64,000 nt of DNA from an uncultured Clostridia bacterium (GTDB lineage: Bacteria > Bacillota > Clostridia > Oscillospirales > Ruminococcaceae): contig CANQOC010000005.1 in assembly GCA_947625375.1 (NCBI GenBank), positions 45,630 through 109,629 on the forward strand. The letters run 5' to 3'. Positions 40,272 through 54,398 of the stretch are shown one piece after another. The first letter of the stretch is position 1. Every line of letters starts with the position of its first letter. The notes under the pieces were generated by a model. It saw only the letters and a list, made by a program, of their open reading frames with translations. It did not search any database and had not been told where the DNA came from. The translations under genes and the position numbers were made by a program.

Positions 40272-40447
40272 ATCAAATCCTCCTTTAAATCAAAAAACTC
40301 CGGACTTATTATAATCCAACCCGCCGCTGTTGTCAACCGGATTAGAGGTTAGAAATTAGAGATTAGAAATTAGAAGTCAGAAAAATGCCCGCACGGTTAG
40401 ATGCGGGCGATTTTAAGGAAAAAGCTGTTATGCCGTTGTCGGTTAAA

Positions 40448-40708
40448 TCAGTCTCCCGAGCCGACCGGGCCGTTATATCCGCACCAGTCGCAGACAAGGC
40501 TGTTTCCGCCGTCGTACAGATAGATATACGACCCGCCGGACTTCTTGCACATCGGGCAGCAGGGCGCCGGGCGCGTCTTCTGCTCCGCGCCGTCGGATTT
40601 TTTCAGCATCGCGCCGACGCTCTTAATCACGTCGCCGACAATTCCGCCCCCGACAGCTCCCGAGAGCTCGCCGTCTTTAAGCTCGCAATCCTCTTTTCTG
40701 TTGGACAT
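40448..40708 (-). CDS. Array A member A10: double-glycine-leader peptide with zinc-ribbon-like core
   Basis: Leader ...ELKDGELSGAVGG. Core GIVGDVIKSVGAMLKK, a linker, then CCPMCKK...CDWCGYNGP. Confidence 0.75.
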   Translation of the reverse strand: MSNRKEDCELKDGELSGAVGGGIVGDVIKSVGAMLKKSDGAEQKTRPAPCCPMCKKSGGSYIYLYDGGNSLVCDWCGYNGPVGSGD

Positions 40709-40751
40709 TCCGTCAGCCTCCTTTCGTCCTCGGCCGGTCGGCCTTGGGTTA

Positions 40752-41069
40752 TCATCTCATCGTGACAAAGCCGAATTCGTCTTTTCCGATAGAGTCAGGC
40801 TTCGGGGGTTCTTTTTCCTCATGCTTTGGGCGGAACATGGACAGCCAAAAGTCTCCGCACGCTTCCAAAAAATCGTCAAGGATTTCAATTCCTCCGGCGG
40901 CGCCTTCGATTTCCTCGTCAGAAATCTCTCCGCTCCTCGCGTTTATCTTAGAGAAAAACTTCTCGGCGTCTTCCGGCGCGAGGTCCTTGCCGTTTTCCTT
41001 TGCAAGCTCGATAAGCTCGCCGGCGGACTTTGCCGCCCTTGCCCTTTTAATGAATTCTTCTTGTGTCAT
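40752..41069 (-). CDS. Array A member A9: Nif11-type-leader precursor
   Basis: Leader MTQEEFIKRARAAKSAGELIELAKENG...SGEISDEEIEGAAGG. 45-aa core IEILDDFLEACGDFWLSMFRPKHEEKEPPKPDS... Confidence 0.8.
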   Translation of the reverse strand: MTQEEFIKRARAAKSAGELIELAKENGKDLAPEDAEKFFSKINARSGEISDEEIEGAAGGIEILDDFLEACGDFWLSMFRPKHEEKEPPKPDSIGKDEFGFVTMR

Positions 41070-41092
41070 AATATTATCTCCTTTCGGTATTT

Positions 41093-41410
41093 TTATCTCA
41101 TCGTGACAAAGCCGAATTCGTCTTTTCCGATAGAGTCGGGCTTCGGGGGTTCTTTTTCCTCATGCTTTGGGCGGAACATGGACAGCCAAAAGTCTCCGCA
41201 CGCTTCCAAAAAATCGTCAAGGATTTCAATTCCTCCGGCGGCGCCTTCGATTTCCTCGTCAGAAATCTCTCCGCTCCTCGCGTTTATCTTGGAGAAAAGC
41301 TTCTCGGCGTCTTCCAACGCGAGGTTATTGCCGTTTTCCTTTGCAAGCTCGATAAGCTCGCCGGCGGACTTTGCCGCCTTTAATGTTTTAATAATTTCTT
41401 CGTTAGCCAT
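41093..41410 (-). CDS. Array A member A8: Nif11-type-leader precursor (paralog of A9, identical core)
   Basis: The C-terminal two thirds are identical in protein to A9, while the N-terminal leader is diverged. 341-bp tandem duplication. Confidence 0.8.
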   Translation of the reverse strand: MANEEIIKTLKAAKSAGELIELAKENGNNLALEDAEKLFSKINARSGEISDEEIEGAAGGIEILDDFLEACGDFWLSMFRPKHEEKEPPKPDSIGKDEFGFVTMR

Positions 41411-41458
41411 AATAATATCCTCCTGTAAATAAGTATCGGCTTTACTGTCCGAAGATTC

Positions 41459-41782
41459 TCAGTTCTTAATGATAACCTTCTTATTACGCGGATCCAACAG
41501 CTGGCAGAGCAGCATATCGGGTTCATGACCCAGATGTCTGCAGGTTCCGCAGCACCCCTGAAGAATAACCTTGGCTTCGCCGTTGGTAATGCCCTTTTGG
41601 CGCGCGTAAAGGGAAATATTCATTTCGCTCGGAGTGCTGTCGCCCGGCTGATACTGTCCGATAATACACTTGGTGTCAAGCTTAATGACGGGATAGTCGA
41701 GAGAGCCTTCGCCCCCGCCCGCCGCGGCGCTGAGCTTAACGTCGTTAATTTCGCTGTGCTTAATAATCTCTTCATCTGCCAT
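41459..41782 (-). CDS. Array A member A7: short GG-leader precursor with 84-aa core
   Basis: Leader MADEEIIKHSEINDVKLSAAAGG. The core ends ...LQGCCGTCRHLGHEPDMLLCQLL... Confidence 0.72.
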   Translation of the reverse strand: MADEEIIKHSEINDVKLSAAAGGGEGSLDYPVIKLDTKCIIGQYQPGDSTPSEMNISLYARQKGITNGEAKVILQGCCGTCRHLGHEPDMLLCQLLDPRNKKVIIKN

Positions 41783-41823
41783 AATATCGCCTTCTTTCTT
41801 AACGATTAAATTAACCCGGGTTA

Positions 41824-42159
41824 TTAGTTTAGATATAACGGTCCTTCATATCCGCAGTCGTCACAGTAAATCATCTTTGTGCCGTCGGGAGCGTCGTGAA
41901 TAAAAATCCATGCCGACGACGTCTGACCGCAAATCGGGCATTTTTCGGGAGTCCAAGGCGGCGCCGCGGGAGTGGGAGCTTTCGGCTCTTTCTGCTTTTT
42001 CGGCTTAGAGTCCTTTCCACCGTAAAACAAACCGCCGATAGATTCCTTGACCCAGTCAACTACTCCCCCGCCGGCGACATTGTCGAGATTGTCGTCCGAG
42101 ATTTCGTGCGGCTCGGCGGCCTCGATTTTTTCTTCTTTTTTGATTTCCTTTTCAGACAT
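41824..42159 (-). CDS. Array A member A6: GG-leader peptide with zinc-ribbon-like core
   Basis: Leader ...HEISDDNLDNVAGG. Core GVVDWVKESIGG, a Lys/Pro-rich linker, then CPICGQ...CDDCGYEGP. Confidence 0.75.
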   Translation of the reverse strand: MSEKEIKKEEKIEAAEPHEISDDNLDNVAGGGVVDWVKESIGGLFYGGKDSKPKKQKEPKAPTPAAPPWTPEKCPICGQTSSAWIFIHDAPDGTKMIYCDDCGYEGPLYLN

Positions 42160-42205
42160 AATATTATCTCCTTTAAATAAATTTCGTCAGTCGGATATGC
42201 GGTCA

Positions 42206-42451
42206 TCAGACCGAGGACAAGGGCCCCTCATATCCGCACAGCAAGCATTTAATCATAACCGTGCCGTCATCGGCCGCGGTGCCGAAAACAAAAACATTGT
42301 CCACAGGCTTATGGCAAAAGGGGCAGAGGTCGGGTTCCTTCGGCTTCTCCCAAGGATAATGCAAATCCGCCTTAATCCAATCATCGATTGCTCCCCCTCC
42401 CGACGCCTTTTCGAGAGCGCCGTCCGAGAGCTCGCTGTTAAGCCTTTTCAT
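42206..42451 (-). CDS. Array A member A5: GG-leader peptide with zinc-ribbon-like core
   Basis: The ATG at 42451 follows SD aaggagga. Leader MKRLNSELSDGALEKASGG. Core GAIDDWIKADL...CPFCHK...CLLCGYEGP. Confidence 0.75.
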   Translation of the reverse strand: MKRLNSELSDGALEKASGGGAIDDWIKADLHYPWEKPKEPDLCPFCHKPVDNVFVFGTAADDGTVMIKCLLCGYEGPLSSV

Positions 42452-42474
42452 TGCAGCTCCTCCTTCGCGGGTCA

Positions 42475-42657
42475 TCAAAGCCTGCACATGCCGTTGCCGC
42501 AATATTGTCTGCAGTTGTCACAGGACTTATCTTTACTGCCATACTTCCCATTAAAAAGGTCGCAGTAATGCTCGGGCGGGCAGTCGTGACCCCCGTCGAC
42601 CCCGACGCTCTTTCCGCCGGTAACCTTCTCGGTTTCAATGTCTTTAGATTCTTTCAT
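42475..42657 (-). CDS. Array A member A4: bacteriocin-type GG-leader, 6-Cys core
   Basis: MKESKDIETEKVTGG then KSVGVDGGHDCPPEHYC...SCDNCRQYCGNGMCRL. Confidence 0.8.
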   Translation of the reverse strand: MKESKDIETEKVTGGKSVGVDGGHDCPPEHYCDLFNGKYGSKDKSCDNCRQYCGNGMCRL

Positions 42658-42682
42658 TGTAAAGTCCCCTTTCTTCAGTCAA

Positions 42683-42868
42683 TCAAAGTCTGCACCTGTT
42701 GTTGCCGGAATACGCCTGACAGTTGTCACAGGACGTATCCTTCTTCCACTTATCCTTCGCGCAAAATCCTCCGCAGGTATGCGCGGGCGGGCAGTCGTGA
42801 CCCCCGTCGACTCCGACGCTCTTTCCGCCGGTTGCTTCCTCAATCTCGAAATCATTAAGCTCTTTCAT
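42683..42868 (-). CDS. Array A member A3: bacteriocin-type GG-leader, 6-Cys core
   Basis: MKELNDFEIEEATGG then KSVGVDGGHDCPPAHTCGGFC...SCDNCQAYSGNNRCRL. Confidence 0.8.
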   Translation of the reverse strand: MKELNDFEIEEATGGKSVGVDGGHDCPPAHTCGGFCAKDKWKKDTSCDNCQAYSGNNRCRL

Positions 42869-42891
42869 TGTAAATCCTCCTTAAAATAATG

Positions 42892-43110
42892 TTATCGTGC
42901 ATGGTTGCACAGGTCTTTTCCGTCGTTGTTTTTTCCGCAATGGTGACGGCAGTTGTAACAGGAATCCGGGTCTCCCGGAAGTCTTCCGCTGCCCTCTTTC
43001 TCGTGATAATACTTGCATATCTTGCTTTCGGGACAGGTCCAATAGCCGTAGACGTTGACGGTTCTTCCGCCGGTGACTTCCTCAATCTCGAAATCATTAA
43101 GCTCTTTCAT
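42892..43110 (-). CDS. Array A member A2: bacteriocin-type GG-leader, 6-Cys core
   Basis: MKELNDFEIEEVTGG then RTVNVYGYWTCPESKIC...GDPDSCYNCRHHCGKNNDGKDLC. Confidence 0.8.
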   Translation of the reverse strand: MKELNDFEIEEVTGGRTVNVYGYWTCPESKICKYYHEKEGSGRLPGDPDSCYNCRHHCGKNNDGKDLCNHAR

Positions 43111-43127
43111 TGTAATTCCTCCTTAAA

Positions 43128-43355
43128 TTACGGTTCCCACCAAGCTAATGTGCACAGGTTTTCTCCCTTTTGATTATATCCGCAGAAGAAGCGGCAGTAG
43201 ATGCAGGAATCAGGGTCTCCCGGCTGTTTGACCATGCCATCCTTAAATAAATAATGCTTACACATACGGCTTTCGGGACCAACCCAATAACCTATCGGGT
43301 TGACACTTCTTCCTCCGGCGGCCGTCTCGAGTTCCTTGTCGTTAATTTCTTTCAT
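43128..43355 (-). CDS. Array A member A1: bacteriocin-type GG-leader, 5-Cys core
   Basis: MKEINDKELETAAGG then RSVNPIGYWVGPESRMC...GDPDSCIYCRFFCGYNQKGENLC. Confidence 0.8.
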   Translation of the reverse strand: MKEINDKELETAAGGRSVNPIGYWVGPESRMCKHYLFKDGMVKQPGDPDSCIYCRFFCGYNQKGENLCTLAWWEP

Positions 43356-43405: not shown

Positions 43406-43469
43406 ATTATACCACTATTTTTTGATTTTGGCGTGTCGTTTACGTCACATTTCGTGTCGTTTACGTCAC
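43406..43469 (-). promoter_or_regulatory. Array A promoter: two phased 16-bp direct repeats plus an extended -10
   Basis: On the minus strand: GTGACGTAAACGACAC, gaaat, GTGACGTAAACGACAC, 21 nt, TGgTATAAT. The -35 is weak (ACGCCA). Confidence 0.7.
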
Positions 43470-52557: not shown

Positions 52558-52989
52558 ATGAACGAAATCATTAAAAAAGCAAGAGCGGCAAAGTCGGCCG
52601 GAGAGCTCATCGAGCTTGCGAAAGCCAACGGCAAGGACCTCACCAAAGAACAGGCCGAGATGTTCTTCAAAAGCCTCAGCCAAGGCGGCGAGATATCCGA
52701 CGAGGAGCTTTCGAGCGCGGTCGGCGGGTGCGGCGGTTCGGAAATATCCTGGGAGAAGAGCCTCGGCTTCTCGAGAATCGATTGCCGAAAGGGCGACTTC
52801 GTCGGGGGACACACCTTTGCGGCGAAGACGTATTGGAAGTGCGCCATCTGCGGGGGACACATCTACTGCGACGGTCCTTTGACCGCATACACCAACTGCA
52901 CCCACCTCAAGCAGCATAAGGTCCTCGGCTGTAACAACTGCTTTTTCAACGAGAACGGAAAATGCAACTACTATGACGACAGCCTTTGA
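52558..52989 (+). CDS. Array B member B1: Nif11-type-leader precursor, 86-aa 9-Cys core
   Basis: Leader MNEIIKKARAAKSAGELIELAKANG...GEISDEELSSAVGG. The core starts CGGSE, contains WKCAIC and ends GCNNCFFNENGKCNYYDDSL. Confidence 0.8.
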   Translation: MNEIIKKARAAKSAGELIELAKANGKDLTKEQAEMFFKSLSQGGEISDEELSSAVGGCGGSEISWEKSLGFSRIDCRKGDFVGGHTFAAKTYWKCAICGGHIYCDGPLTAYTNCTHLKQHKVLGCNNCFFNENGKCNYYDDSL

Positions 52990-53019
52990 TTAAGGGCAGG
53001 GTTCTGAGGAGGTATTATC

Positions 53020-53445
53020 ATGAACGAGGAAATTTTAGCAAAGGCAAAGGCGGCAGGTTCGCCGGAGGAGCTTTTAAAGCTTGCTCACGAAAACGGCATG
53101 TCCTACTTTACCGAGGAGAACGCGAACGCTTATTTCAACGTCCTGCACCAGAGCGGCGAGATTACGGACGAAGAGCTTGAAAAAGCGGCGGGAGGCTGCA
53201 AGAGCAACAAGAGGCGTGTCGTTACGCTCGGATACATCTGCCCCGTAAACTACGGAGGCTGGAAGTGCAAGGACTGCCTTGCGCCGAACAACGTCTGCAA
53301 GTGCTGGCTACAGCCGCCGGAGCTTTCGCGCAAGTTCCACGCGTCAATCTTCGCGTGGTGCGCCGATACATGCAGCACCTGCGCGTGGTGTTCATATGAA
53401 AGCGGCATATGGTACTGCAACAACCCCGAAGCAAACGAACTGTAA
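53020..53445 (+). CDS. Array B member B2: Nif11-type-leader precursor, 82-aa 11-Cys core
   Basis: Leader ...AAGSPEELLKLAHENG...SGEITDEELEKAAGG. The core starts CKSNK, contains WKCKDC and CSTCAWCSYESGIWYCNNP. Confidence 0.8.
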   Translation: MNEEILAKAKAAGSPEELLKLAHENGMSYFTEENANAYFNVLHQSGEITDEELEKAAGGCKSNKRRVVTLGYICPVNYGGWKCKDCLAPNNVCKCWLQPPELSRKFHASIFAWCADTCSTCAWCSYESGIWYCNNPEANEL

Positions 53446-53465
53446 TCCCGAAGGGAGAATTTAAC

Positions 53466-53891
53466 ATGTTTAACGAAGAAATGATTAAAAAAATCCGCGG
53501 ACTCGGCTCGCCCGAGGAGCTTATTGAGTTCGGAAAGGAAAACGGCGTCGCAATCAGCAAGGAGACGGCGGAGAAGTATTTTAACTCGCTTCACGGCAGC
53601 GGCGAAATCTCGGACGAGGAGCTTGAGAACACCGCCGGCGGCTGCGGCGGAGGCTATTCGCCGTCGATATATAAGCAATGCCCCGAATGCGGGACAAATA
53701 TCGCGATGAAGGACTTCCGCGACGTCAAGGTTATCGTCAGCGACGAGGTTCTCCACCAGTGGGGATATCCGACCGGCGTATGCCCGAAATGCAACGTCCG
53801 CTATGCTTATGTCCGCGCGCTGAATATGCTCTATCCCGTATCGGTTGACGAAAAGGGCACTTGGGTCATAAGACCGCCGCACAGATATTAA
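53466..53891 (+). CDS. Array B member B3: Nif11-type-leader precursor, 82-aa core with two CxxC pairs
   Basis: The ATG at 53466 follows SD aagggaga. Leader ...SGEISDEELENTAGG. Core CGGGYSPSIYKQCPEC...GVCPKC. Confidence 0.8.
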   Translation: MFNEEMIKKIRGLGSPEELIEFGKENGVAISKETAEKYFNSLHGSGEISDEELENTAGGCGGGYSPSIYKQCPECGTNIAMKDFRDVKVIVSDEVLHQWGYPTGVCPKCNVRYAYVRALNMLYPVSVDEKGTWVIRPPHRY

Positions 53892-53903
53892 AGGAGCTTT
53901 ATC

Positions 53904-54398
53904 ATGAACGACGAAATTTTAGCAAAGGCAAAGGCGGCGGGGTCGCCGGAGGAGCTTTTGAAGCTGGCTCACGAAAACGGCATGTCCTACTTTACCGAGG
54001 AGAACGCAAGGGCGTATTACAGCCTTATGCACCAAAGCGGTGAGATATCCGACGAGGAGCTTGAAAACGCGGCGGGAGGCTGTCGGAAGGGCGGGTATAG
54101 GGTTGTCTCGCGCGGAAATGTATGCGGCTTGGGGCAGTCGGTGGCAATCAACGGCTTCTATGCGTTCACTGAGTGGAAATGCAAGACCTGTAAAGAAATG
54201 CCGGGAGCCGGACTTAGCTTTGAAGACTGGTATAATGTTCACAGGTCATGCAGCTGCAACCGCAGCATATTAGACTCTGTTGCATTTTCGCTCGGCGTAT
54301 CCGTCAACTTCGGGGCGGTCGGAGTCTGCGGCTCCTGCGATTGGTGCAATTACGTCGACGGCGTTTGGATTTGCACAAACCCGCGTGATGCCGAGTGA
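53904..54398 (+). CDS. Array B member B4: Nif11-type-leader precursor, 105-aa 10-Cys core
   Basis: The leader is nearly identical to that of B2. The core starts CRKGG, contains WKCKTC and CGSCDWCNYVDGVWICTNP. Confidence 0.8.
   Translation: MNDEILAKAKAAGSPEELLKLAHENGMSYFTEENARAYYSLMHQSGEISDEELENAAGGCRKGGYRVVSRGNVCGLGQSVAINGFYAFTEWKCKTCKEMPGAGLSFEDWYNVHRSCSCNRSILDSVAFSLGVSVNFGAVGVCGSCDWCNYVDGVWICTNPRDAE

What the first reader, a model, noticed from the sequence alone, without database searches (positions are those of the whole stretch)
42475..43355. A1-A4 form a family of 45-60-aa cores with a conserved Cys framework
The four cores after the short leaders align as two pairs (A1/A2 and A3/A4). 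They share an N-terminal (R/K)(S/T)V-x-(V/P) start and an early Cys pair, CP-x4-C in A2-A4 (CPESKIC, CPPAHTC, CPPEHYC), with A1 having GPESRMC at the equivalent position. They also share a C-terminal block, SC-x2-C-x3-C-G-x(3-8)-C (SCIYCRFFCGYNQKGENLC, SCYNCRHHCGKNNDGKDLC, SCDNCRQYCGNGMC, with A3 having SCDNCQAYSGNNRC). I do not recognise this framework as a named bacteriocin family. The C-x2-C-x3-C spacing also loosely recalls metal- or cluster-binding and thioether-precursor motifs.
Basis: partly seen in the sequence, partly recalled or inferred. Interest (0 to 1): 0.6.

Follow-up and report, generated by a model that had tools for sequence, protein, structure and literature searches.

The report
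Four tandem cysteine-rich secreted-peptide genes
Four neighbouring small genes in an uncultured gut Clostridia bacterium encode export-tagged, cysteine-rich mini-proteins of an undescribed family that is regulated together with, and always co-occurs with, an uncharacterised radical-SAM enzyme, so they are probably precursors of a new modified secreted peptide.

Summary
A1-A4 are four real, tandem, paralogous genes. Each has a Shine-Dalgarno site, a 15-residue double-glycine leader and a hydrophilic 45-60-residue core. No Pfam, NCBIfam or PDB family matches, and a scan of 1.84 billion representative proteins found only this species.

The six-Cys framework is only partly conserved. Four Cys (C2, the C-x2-C pair and the last Cys) are kept in 27 of 28 alleles. 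C1 and C5 vary.

These four Cys align with a wider short-leader family, C-x2-[YF]...C-x2-C-x-[HYF]...C. That family lies beside the genome's only radical-SAM/SPASM enzyme, here and in sister species.

A1-A4 head a ten-gene operon behind a LytTR-type promoter. The same promoter type precedes the other peptide arrays and the radical-SAM gene, with a looser copy before the only C39 export transporter. All five peptide-bearing genomes among 401 sampled also have the enzyme.

Best reading (about 55%): quorum-controlled precursors, crosslinked in trans by the radical-SAM enzyme, then cleaved and exported. Main rival: unmodified, metal-stabilised secreted mini-proteins. The chemistry and biological activity are untested.

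The parts
43406..43469 (-). Promoter of the array. It has two perfect 16-bp direct repeats GTGACGTAAACGACAC (43433-43448 and 43454-43469) spaced 21 bp apart. An extended -10 TGGTATAAT (43406-43414) follows 19 nt downstream. This is a LytTR-type activator layout.
   Evidence: Sequence read. The composite motif occurs only 9 times in the 2.04-Mb genome, always before a GG-peptide array or the radical-SAM gene. A LytTR response regulator (73.7 bits) and a GHKL kinase lie beside the export transporter.
43128..43355 (-). A1: 75-aa precursor with leader MKEINDKELETAAGG and a 60-aa core carrying 5 Cys (C1 replaced by Gly).
   Evidence: ORF and RBS. Alignment. Nine near-identical alleles plus one 59%-identical alternative allele in a sister strain.
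42892..43110 (-). A2: 72-aa precursor with leader MKELNDFEIEEVTGG and a 57-aa core carrying 6 Cys.
   Evidence: AlphaFold2 with the 38-sequence family alignment gave core pLDDT of 73-86.
42683..42868 (-). A3: 61-aa precursor with a 46-aa core. C5 is Ser, and there is an extra Cys in GGFC.
42475..42657 (-). A4: 60-aa precursor with a 45-aa core carrying 6 Cys here. Most population alleles have Ser at C5.
40448..42451 (-). Six further double-glycine-leader precursor genes of the same operon: 42206-42451, 41824-42159, 41459-41782, 41093-41410, 40752-41069 and 40448-40708. Three have zinc-ribbon-like cores and two have Nif11-type leaders.
   Evidence: ORFs. Weak Lar-type zinc-ribbon and Nif11-leader matches.
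40387..40408 (-). Intrinsic terminator closing the ten-gene operon. A 12/12 sigma-70 promoter for the GH5 cellulase genes follows at 40336-40308.

Best explanation
A1-A4 are four paralogous precursor genes at the head of a ten-gene operon switched on by a quorum-sensing-type LytTR response regulator. Each product has a minimal 15-residue double-glycine leader and a hydrophilic 45-60-residue core. The core is built on four conserved cysteines: C-x2-[YF], then C-x-N-C-x2-[YFH], then a last C. The leader is recognised and cut after Gly-Gly by the genome's only C39-peptidase ABC exporter, an NHLP-type ABC1/ABC2 pair encoded on another contig, and the core is released outside the cell. Before export, the genome's single radical-SAM/SPASM enzyme most likely crosslinks the core in trans. 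A thioether or similar crosslink involving the conserved Cys is the chemistry I favour. This enzyme sits beside related short-leader four-Cys peptides. The mature products probably act in competition between bacteria. Shown: the genes, leaders, operon, shared promoter type, exporter, enzyme, family relationship and co-occurrence. Inferred: cleavage, modification of A1-A4 by this enzyme, its chemistry, and the biological activity.
For: Genes and selection.

Leader: it fits the double-glycine consensus (L-12, E-8, I/L-7, GG). The 13 C-terminal leader residues suffice for C39 recognition (PMC6363468).

Exporter: there is one C39 locus in the genome, scoring 943 bits for TIGR03796 and 729 bits for TIGR03797, both above cut-off.

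Enzyme: there is one radical-SAM/SPASM gene, placed divergently beside eight short-leader four-Cys peptides.

Framework:
- hhalign of A against the enzyme-adjacent family gave 97% probability, or 53% (E=1.3e-4) on cores alone.
- In a 38-sequence alignment A2's C51, C54 and C68 are invariant and C32 is nearly so.
- A profile built without A scores A cores above their own shuffles; 0-37 of 500 shuffles reached the real score.

Sister species:
- They encode near-identical leaders (MKEINDKDLEKASGG) directly downstream of the orthologous enzyme.
- In one of them the enzyme ORF runs in frame into such a peptide.

Regulon: nine composite LytTR-type promoters occur genome-wide, all before peptide arrays or the enzyme gene.

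Co-occurrence:
- All 5 peptide-bearing genomes among 401 in the family have the enzyme, against 19 of 401 overall.
- In the genus, 6 of 7 do.

Disulfides: odd Cys counts and the absence of DsbB and VKOR argue against a disulfide scaffold.
Against: - A1-A4 are not adjacent to the enzyme.
- Core-only similarity to the enzyme-adjacent peptides is modest, at 2-13 bits.
- Peptides beside the enzyme are very diverse, so adjacency may only reflect a shared bacteriocin island or regulon.
- One 99%-complete MAG (G427) has four-Cys peptides but no detectable enzyme or C39 exporter.
- The co-occurrence statistics are not corrected for phylogeny and rest on only two genera.
- The enzyme matches no curated maturase equivalog; its best PDB relative is SkfB at E=1e-11. 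Its chemistry is therefore unknown.
Confidence: 0.55

Rival explanations
1. A1-A4 are exported but unmodified mini-proteins, in the manner of class II bacteriocins. The four conserved Cys bind a metal ion, most plausibly zinc, or form disulfides that stabilise a small fold. The radical-SAM enzyme serves other peptides of the regulon.
For: - AlphaFold2 with the family alignment gives a moderately confident compact core, with pLDDT of 73-86, a short helix at the C-x2-C and a following hairpin.
- The same operon carries clear zinc-ribbon-like cores, with weak Lar-type matches.
- A1-A4 are not adjacent to the enzyme.
- G427 keeps such peptides without a detectable enzyme.
- The cores are long and hydrophilic, with GRAVY of -0.55 to -1.29, more like a folded domain than a typical small crosslinked peptide.
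Against: - No zinc-ribbon or other metal-binding model matches A1-A4.
- No structural neighbour was found.
- There is only one C-x2-C knuckle.
- Odd Cys counts and the lack of DsbB and VKOR disfavour disulfides.
- The tight co-occurrence and shared promoter with the enzyme would then be coincidental.
Confidence: 0.3
2. One or more of A1-A4 are the signalling peptides sensed by the histidine kinase / LytTR regulator pair, rather than antagonistic products.
For: Double-glycine-leader pheromones that control LytTR regulons are classical (ComC, BlpC and PlnA, from general knowledge). The array sits behind a LytTR-type promoter, which would allow autoinduction.
Against: - The cores are 45-60 residues, against about 17-27 for known pheromones.
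- Four divergent paralogs with allele replacement (dS 0.74 against 0.12 in the flank) fit conflict better than a matched signal-receptor pair.
- A better pheromone candidate exists: a peptide with repeated GG modules at C14:11777-12091.
Confidence: 0.08
3. The ORFs are non-functional remnants or annotation noise.
For: No homolog was found outside one species.
Against: Every gene has an RBS. dN/dS is 0.23-0.47. The frames are intact in 28 alleles on dozens of contigs. The locus is syntenic in a sister strain. It has its own promoter and terminator.
Confidence: 0.02

Closest known systems
Multi-precursor double-glycine/Nif11 arrays processed by one C39-peptidase ABC transporter (LahA1-9 with LahT in Lachnospiraceae C6A11; prochlorosin ProcA peptides)
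   Same: Many diverse cores sit behind conserved GG leaders. One substrate-tolerant C39 exporter serves them, and the C-terminal 13 or so leader residues suffice for cleavage (PMC6363468). The exporter here is the NHLP-type pair.
   Different: Those systems use a lanthipeptide synthetase encoded with the precursors. Here the only candidate maturase is a radical-SAM/SPASM enzyme on another contig. The A leaders are minimal at 15 aa, and the cores are 45-60-aa hydrophilic four-Cys units with no Ser/Thr-Cys lanthionine pattern.
Radical-SAM/SPASM thioether RiPPs (sactipeptides such as SkfA/SkfB and ruminococcin C; ranthipeptides such as SCIFF/CteB)
   Same: These pair a Cys-rich precursor with a radical-SAM/SPASM maturase. 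SkfB is the nearest solved relative of the enzyme (E=1e-11). Their Cys counts need not be even.
   Different: There was no match to SCIFF or any curated maturase equivalog; the best was 110 bits against cut-offs of 400-725. The precursors are much longer, dispersed over at least five loci, and number about 20 per genome. The crosslink type is unknown.
LytTR-regulated class II bacteriocin regulons (pln of Lactiplantibacillus plantarum, blp of Streptococcus pneumoniae)
   Same: Paired direct repeats about 21 bp apart lie upstream of the -10 of several peptide operons and the transporter operon. A histidine kinase and a LytTR regulator lie next to the C39 ABC exporter.
   Different: The products here are not small amphipathic or hydrophobic pore-formers. 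No immunity genes are interleaved. A radical-SAM enzyme is part of the regulon.

Membership tests
Double-glycine (C39/PCAT-processed) leader peptide precursors | N-terminal leader ending in Gly-Gly with conserved hydrophobic residues at -4, -7 and -12 and an acidic residue at -8 | tested here: met
   MKELNDFEIEEATGG has L-12, E-8, I-7, A-4 and GG, and the pattern is kept in all four genes and all alleles. The curated 15-position model TIGR01847 reported no hit for A1-A4, but it hit the related enzyme-adjacent peptides at 16.7 bits.
Double-glycine (C39/PCAT-processed) leader peptide precursors | A C39-peptidase ABC transporter is present in the genome | tested here: met
   There is one PF03412 locus, C2:54557-56737. 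It scores 942.6 bits for TIGR03796 (cut-off 853.3), and its partner scores 729 bits for TIGR03797.
Double-glycine (C39/PCAT-processed) leader peptide precursors | Cleavage after Gly-Gly coupled to export | not testable with these tools
   This needs an in vitro C39 assay or mass spectrometry of secreted peptides.
Nif11-type (N11P) leader precursors | Leader of about 60-70 aa matching TIGR03798 or PF07862 | tested here: not met
   A1-A4 have 15-aa leaders and no hit. Only the operon members at 41093-41410 and 40752-41069 match weakly, at 24 bits.
SCIFF / ranthipeptide precursors | Match to the SCIFF six-Cys-in-45 model, with the cognate maturase adjacent | tested here: not met
   No SCIFF hit at E<=1 in NCBIfam. 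The enzyme does not reach any SCIFF- or Clo7bot-type maturase cut-off.
Sactipeptide/ranthipeptide class in the broad sense (radical-SAM/SPASM thioether RiPPs) | A radical-SAM/SPASM maturase is genetically linked to the precursor | tested here: inconclusive
   The enzyme is present once in the genome, shares the promoter type and always co-occurs. It lies on another contig from A1-A4.
Sactipeptide/ranthipeptide class in the broad sense (radical-SAM/SPASM thioether RiPPs) | Cys-to-carbon thioether crosslinks in the mature peptide | not testable with these tools
   This requires MS/MS or NMR of modified peptide.
DUF1540 (PF07561) | Match to the Pfam model | tested here: not met
   No hit at E<=1.
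Zinc ribbon / rubredoxin-like knuckle domains | Two C-x2-C knuckles, or a match to a zinc-ribbon model | tested here: not met
   A1-A4 have a single C-x2-C and no zinc-ribbon hit, whereas the neighbours at 42206-42451 and 41824-42159 give such hits. Foldseek found no neighbour.
High-potential iron-sulfur proteins | C-x2-C followed by two downstream Cys ligands, with significant sequence similarity | tested here: not met
   There is only a local SC-x2-C-x2-Y-x-GK resemblance to 1hlq at E=0.81, and the ligand order differs.

The most novel reading that the evidence does not exclude
The short-leader four-Cys peptides, with about 20 genes in this genome including A1-A4, are substrates of an uncharacterised radical-SAM/SPASM clade. 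They would define a new RiPP class of 45-60-residue hydrophilic crosslinked mini-proteins. One enzyme and one exporter would serve many dispersed, rapidly diversifying precursor arrays under a single quorum-sensing regulon.
Probability: 0.4. Interest if true: 0.7.

Novelty: new member of a known kind. Interest (0 to 1): 0.5.

Why it matters
If the radical-SAM link is real, this is a testable entry point to a new enzyme chemistry and a new class of large ribosomal peptides from uncultured gut Clostridia. The precursors, the candidate maturase, the exporter and the regulator site are all defined. The locus also shows how such systems diversify. It carries tandem paralogs, gene conversion between A3 and A4, and replacement of A1 by an old divergent allele within one species. 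If the peptides turn out to be unmodified, they would instead be an example of metal-stabilised secreted mini-proteins in a strict anaerobe that lacks disulfide-forming machinery.

Tried and rejected
- **Named families.** Pfam and NCBIfam scans of A1-A4 at E<=1 found no SCIFF, DUF1540, zinc-ribbon or bacteriocin family. The only hit was a sub-threshold leader match to the plantaricin C family, at 13-14 bits against a cut-off of 29.
- **Homolog searches.** Searches of 5.8 billion and 1.84 billion proteins and of 401 genomes of the family gave no homolog outside the species.
- **Synteny.** Fourteen other species of the genus have no peptide genes downstream of TatD, so there are no orthologous arrays to compare.
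- **Structure.**
  - AlphaFold2 with the 8-sequence family alignment gave pLDDT 52 and was uninformative.
  - The better model from the 38-sequence alignment found no PDB neighbour; the best Foldseek E was 7.5.
  - I could not read model coordinates to measure Cys-Cys distances.
- **PDB profile search.** Only non-significant hits came back: myohemerythrin at E=0.69 and a HiPIP at E=0.81. The HiPIP resemblance was rejected because the ligand order differs.
- **Literature.** Three searches found no description of this family.
- **Earlier notes.** A sequence look-up found nothing for a sister-species member of the wider four-Cys family; A1-A4 themselves were not queried.

Full report
**What is there.** Four ORFs lie head to tail on the minus strand:

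| Gene | Coordinates | Precursor |
|---|---|---|
| A1 | 43128-43355 | 75 aa |
| A2 | 42892-43110 | 72 aa |
| A3 | 42683-42868 | 61 aa |
| A4 | 42475-42657 | 60 aa |

- Each has an AAGGAGG-type ribosome-binding site 7-8 nt before its ATG.
- Each starts with a 15-residue leader of the form MKELNDFEIEEATGG.
- After the Gly-Gly, the cores are 60, 57, 46 and 45 residues long.
- The genes fall into two pairs. A1/A2 are 54% identical and A3/A4 are 64-65% identical, against 37-45% across pairs.

**The genes are real.**
- dN/dS between paralogs is 0.23-0.47.
- Public metagenomes hold 28 distinct allelic sequences with intact frames, on dozens of contigs.
- A sister strain (L010) carries the same locus in the same place, between TatD and two GH5 cellulase genes.
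- Between the two strains the flanks are about 98.3-98.6% identical, but the array is more diverged.
  - A2 differs by one residue.
  - A3 and A4 have been homogenised, probably by gene conversion.
  - A1 is replaced by an allele only 57-59% identical (57% over the 74 aligned codons, 59% by BLASTP). Its dS is 0.74, against 0.12 for TatD. This looks like an old allele swapped in by recombination.

**Operon and context.**
- A1-A4 open a ten-gene array of double-glycine-leader peptides at 40448-43355.
- The array ends at an intrinsic terminator (40387-40408). A consensus sigma-70 promoter for the cellulase genes follows.
- The flanks are housekeeping genes. No modifying enzyme, transporter or immunity gene lies nearby.
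- In 14 other species of the genus, the region downstream of TatD holds no such peptides. The array is therefore a species-specific insertion.

**No named family fits.**
- Pfam and NCBIfam gave nothing for A1-A4 at E<=1 except a sub-threshold leader match.
- A profile search of the PDB gave nothing significant.
- An HMM search of 1.84 billion representative proteins returned only the species' own clusters.
- A word-indexed search of 5.8 billion proteins added only the alternative A1 allele.
- Among 401 genomes of the family, only the own genome matched strongly.

**Export.**
- The genome is 2.04 Mb and 98.6% complete. It has a single C39-peptidase locus.
- That locus is an NHLP-type pair scoring above the curated cut-offs: TIGR03796 at 943 bits and TIGR03797 at 729 bits. 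A short HlyD-like gene accompanies it.
- A GHKL histidine kinase and a LytTR response regulator lie alongside.
- Published work on LahT shows that the last 13 or so leader residues suffice for C39 recognition, and that such proteases tolerate diverse cores (PMC6363468).
- The A leaders amount to that minimal motif.

**The cysteine framework, re-examined.**
- Across the paralogs and 28 alleles, four Cys are conserved: C2 (the second of CP-x4-C), the C-x2-C pair, and the last Cys. The single exception is a singleton allele with C4 changed to Phe.
- C1 is Gly in A1.
- C5 is Ser in A3 and in most A3/A4 alleles, and Ala in the alternative A1 allele.
- About half the members therefore have five Cys. 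That is awkward for an all-disulfide scaffold.
- The genome also lacks DsbB and VKOR.

**Link to a radical-SAM enzyme: gene neighbourhood.**
- The genome has exactly one radical-SAM/SPASM gene, at C14:10265-11698.
- It belongs to no curated maturase equivalog. Its nearest solved relative is the sactipeptide enzyme SkfB, at E=1e-11.
- Divergently beside it lie eight short-leader peptides. They share a GG-[RK]-[ST]-V start and the skeleton C-[P]-x-[YF] ... DC-x-N-C-x-[HF]-Y ... C.

**Link to a radical-SAM enzyme: sequence relationship.**
- Profile-profile comparison of A1-A4 with these peptides gave 97% probability. With leaders removed it gave 53%, E=1.3e-4.
- In a 38-sequence alignment that includes sister-species peptides, three A2 cysteines are invariant and a fourth is nearly so.
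- A profile built from 43 non-A cores scored each A core above its own shuffles; 0, 1, 3, 19, 22 and 37 of 500 shuffles reached the real score. This support is consistent but individually modest.
- Orthologous enzymes in rabbit-gut Clostridia MAGs are followed directly by peptides with near-identical leaders (MKEINDKDLEKASGG) and the same skeleton.
- In one of these MAGs the enzyme ORF runs in frame into such a peptide.
- The own genome holds about 20 members of this wider family.

**Shared regulation.**
- Upstream of A1 lie two perfect 16-bp repeats, 21 bp apart, followed by an extended -10.
- A composite search for this layout found nine sites in the whole genome. All lie before peptide arrays or the radical-SAM gene.
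- The exporter operon has a looser copy.
I re-derived it here and extended it to the enzyme gene.

**Co-occurrence.**
- In 41 genomes of the genus, the enzyme and the peptide family coincide in six. One genome has peptides only (G427), one has only an enzyme fragment (G430), and 33 have neither. Fisher p is 1e-5.
- In 401 genomes of the family, peptides occur in five genomes from two genera. All five have an enzyme homolog, against 19 of 401 overall. Fisher p is 1.4e-7.
- These tests are not corrected for phylogeny.
- MAG incompleteness blurs the absences. G180 has the enzyme and peptides but no detected exporter.

**Structure.**
- AlphaFold2 with eight sequences was uninformative, at pLDDT 52.
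- With the 38-sequence alignment the core rose to pLDDT 73-86. It shows a short helix at the C-x2-C and a following hairpin.
- Foldseek found no PDB neighbour.
- The cores are hydrophilic, with GRAVY of -0.55 to -1.29. They are unlike pore-forming class II bacteriocins.

**Mechanism.**
- I judge the following most likely, at about 55%. A quorum signal activates the LytTR regulator. The regulator switches on the arrays, the enzyme and the exporter. The radical-SAM/SPASM enzyme crosslinks the cores. The C39 exporter then removes the leader and secretes the product, which acts against competitors.
- The main rival, at about 30%, is that A1-A4 are unmodified and the four Cys hold a metal.
- A pheromone role (about 8%) and non-function (about 2%) are unlikely.

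**Comparison with known systems.**
- The architecture resembles multi-precursor Nif11/double-glycine systems such as LahA/LahT. It also resembles LytTR-controlled bacteriocin regulons.
- The candidate chemistry points to sactipeptides or ranthipeptides.
- Membership is met only for the double-glycine leader class. SCIFF, DUF1540, zinc-ribbon, Nif11 and HiPIP were tested and not met.

**Limits.** The enzyme's reaction, the cleavage step and any biological activity are all inferred.

Noticed in passing
G000 C14:11777-12091 (minus strand; outside the window): A 104-aa peptide has three successive GG-ending leader-like modules and a repeated TFT[IF]LSM[ND]DEQQSK unit. It lies behind a LytTR-type promoter, just downstream of and convergent with the radical-SAM gene. 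It is a candidate multi-copy pheromone precursor for the regulon.
   Followed up: no
window 40448-40708: The tenth array gene, an 86-aa peptide with a zinc-ribbon-like core, is missing from the sister strain L010. That strain has about 186 bp where the window has about 359 bp.
   Followed up: partly
window 43128-43355 versus L010 6001-6225: A1 exists as two deeply diverged alleles within one species (57% identical over the 74 aligned codons, dS 0.74), while the neighbouring A2 differs by one residue. In L010 both A3 and A4 carry the same core, which points to gene conversion.
   Followed up: partly
L030 5001-6620 (same place as G180:C4): The radical-SAM/SPASM ORF has no stop codon before the first downstream precursor. 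It reads in frame into MNEKNEISEKDLEQATGG plus a four-Cys core, giving 539 aa instead of about 475.
   Followed up: partly
G000 C14:29531-31358: A further array of seven short-leader peptides has doubled Cys (DCC-x2-[FY] ... CC-x2-C-x-[YH][FL] ... C). It lies behind the same promoter type.
   Followed up: no
L056 and L057 (G424:C8 and G424:C57): One sister species carries at least 22 matches to the short-leader four-Cys profile. They lie in arrays on both sides of its radical-SAM gene and near its NHLP exporter.
   Followed up: no
L055 (G427:C5:111296-112675): A 99%-complete MAG keeps four-Cys peptides, but no radical-SAM homolog or C39 exporter was detected. This is either a decaying system or a binning gap.
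   Followed up: partly
window 52558-54398: A second array, on the plus strand, holds Nif11-leader precursors whose cores begin with Cys right after GG. It lies behind the same repeat-plus-extended -10 promoter type.
   Followed up: partly
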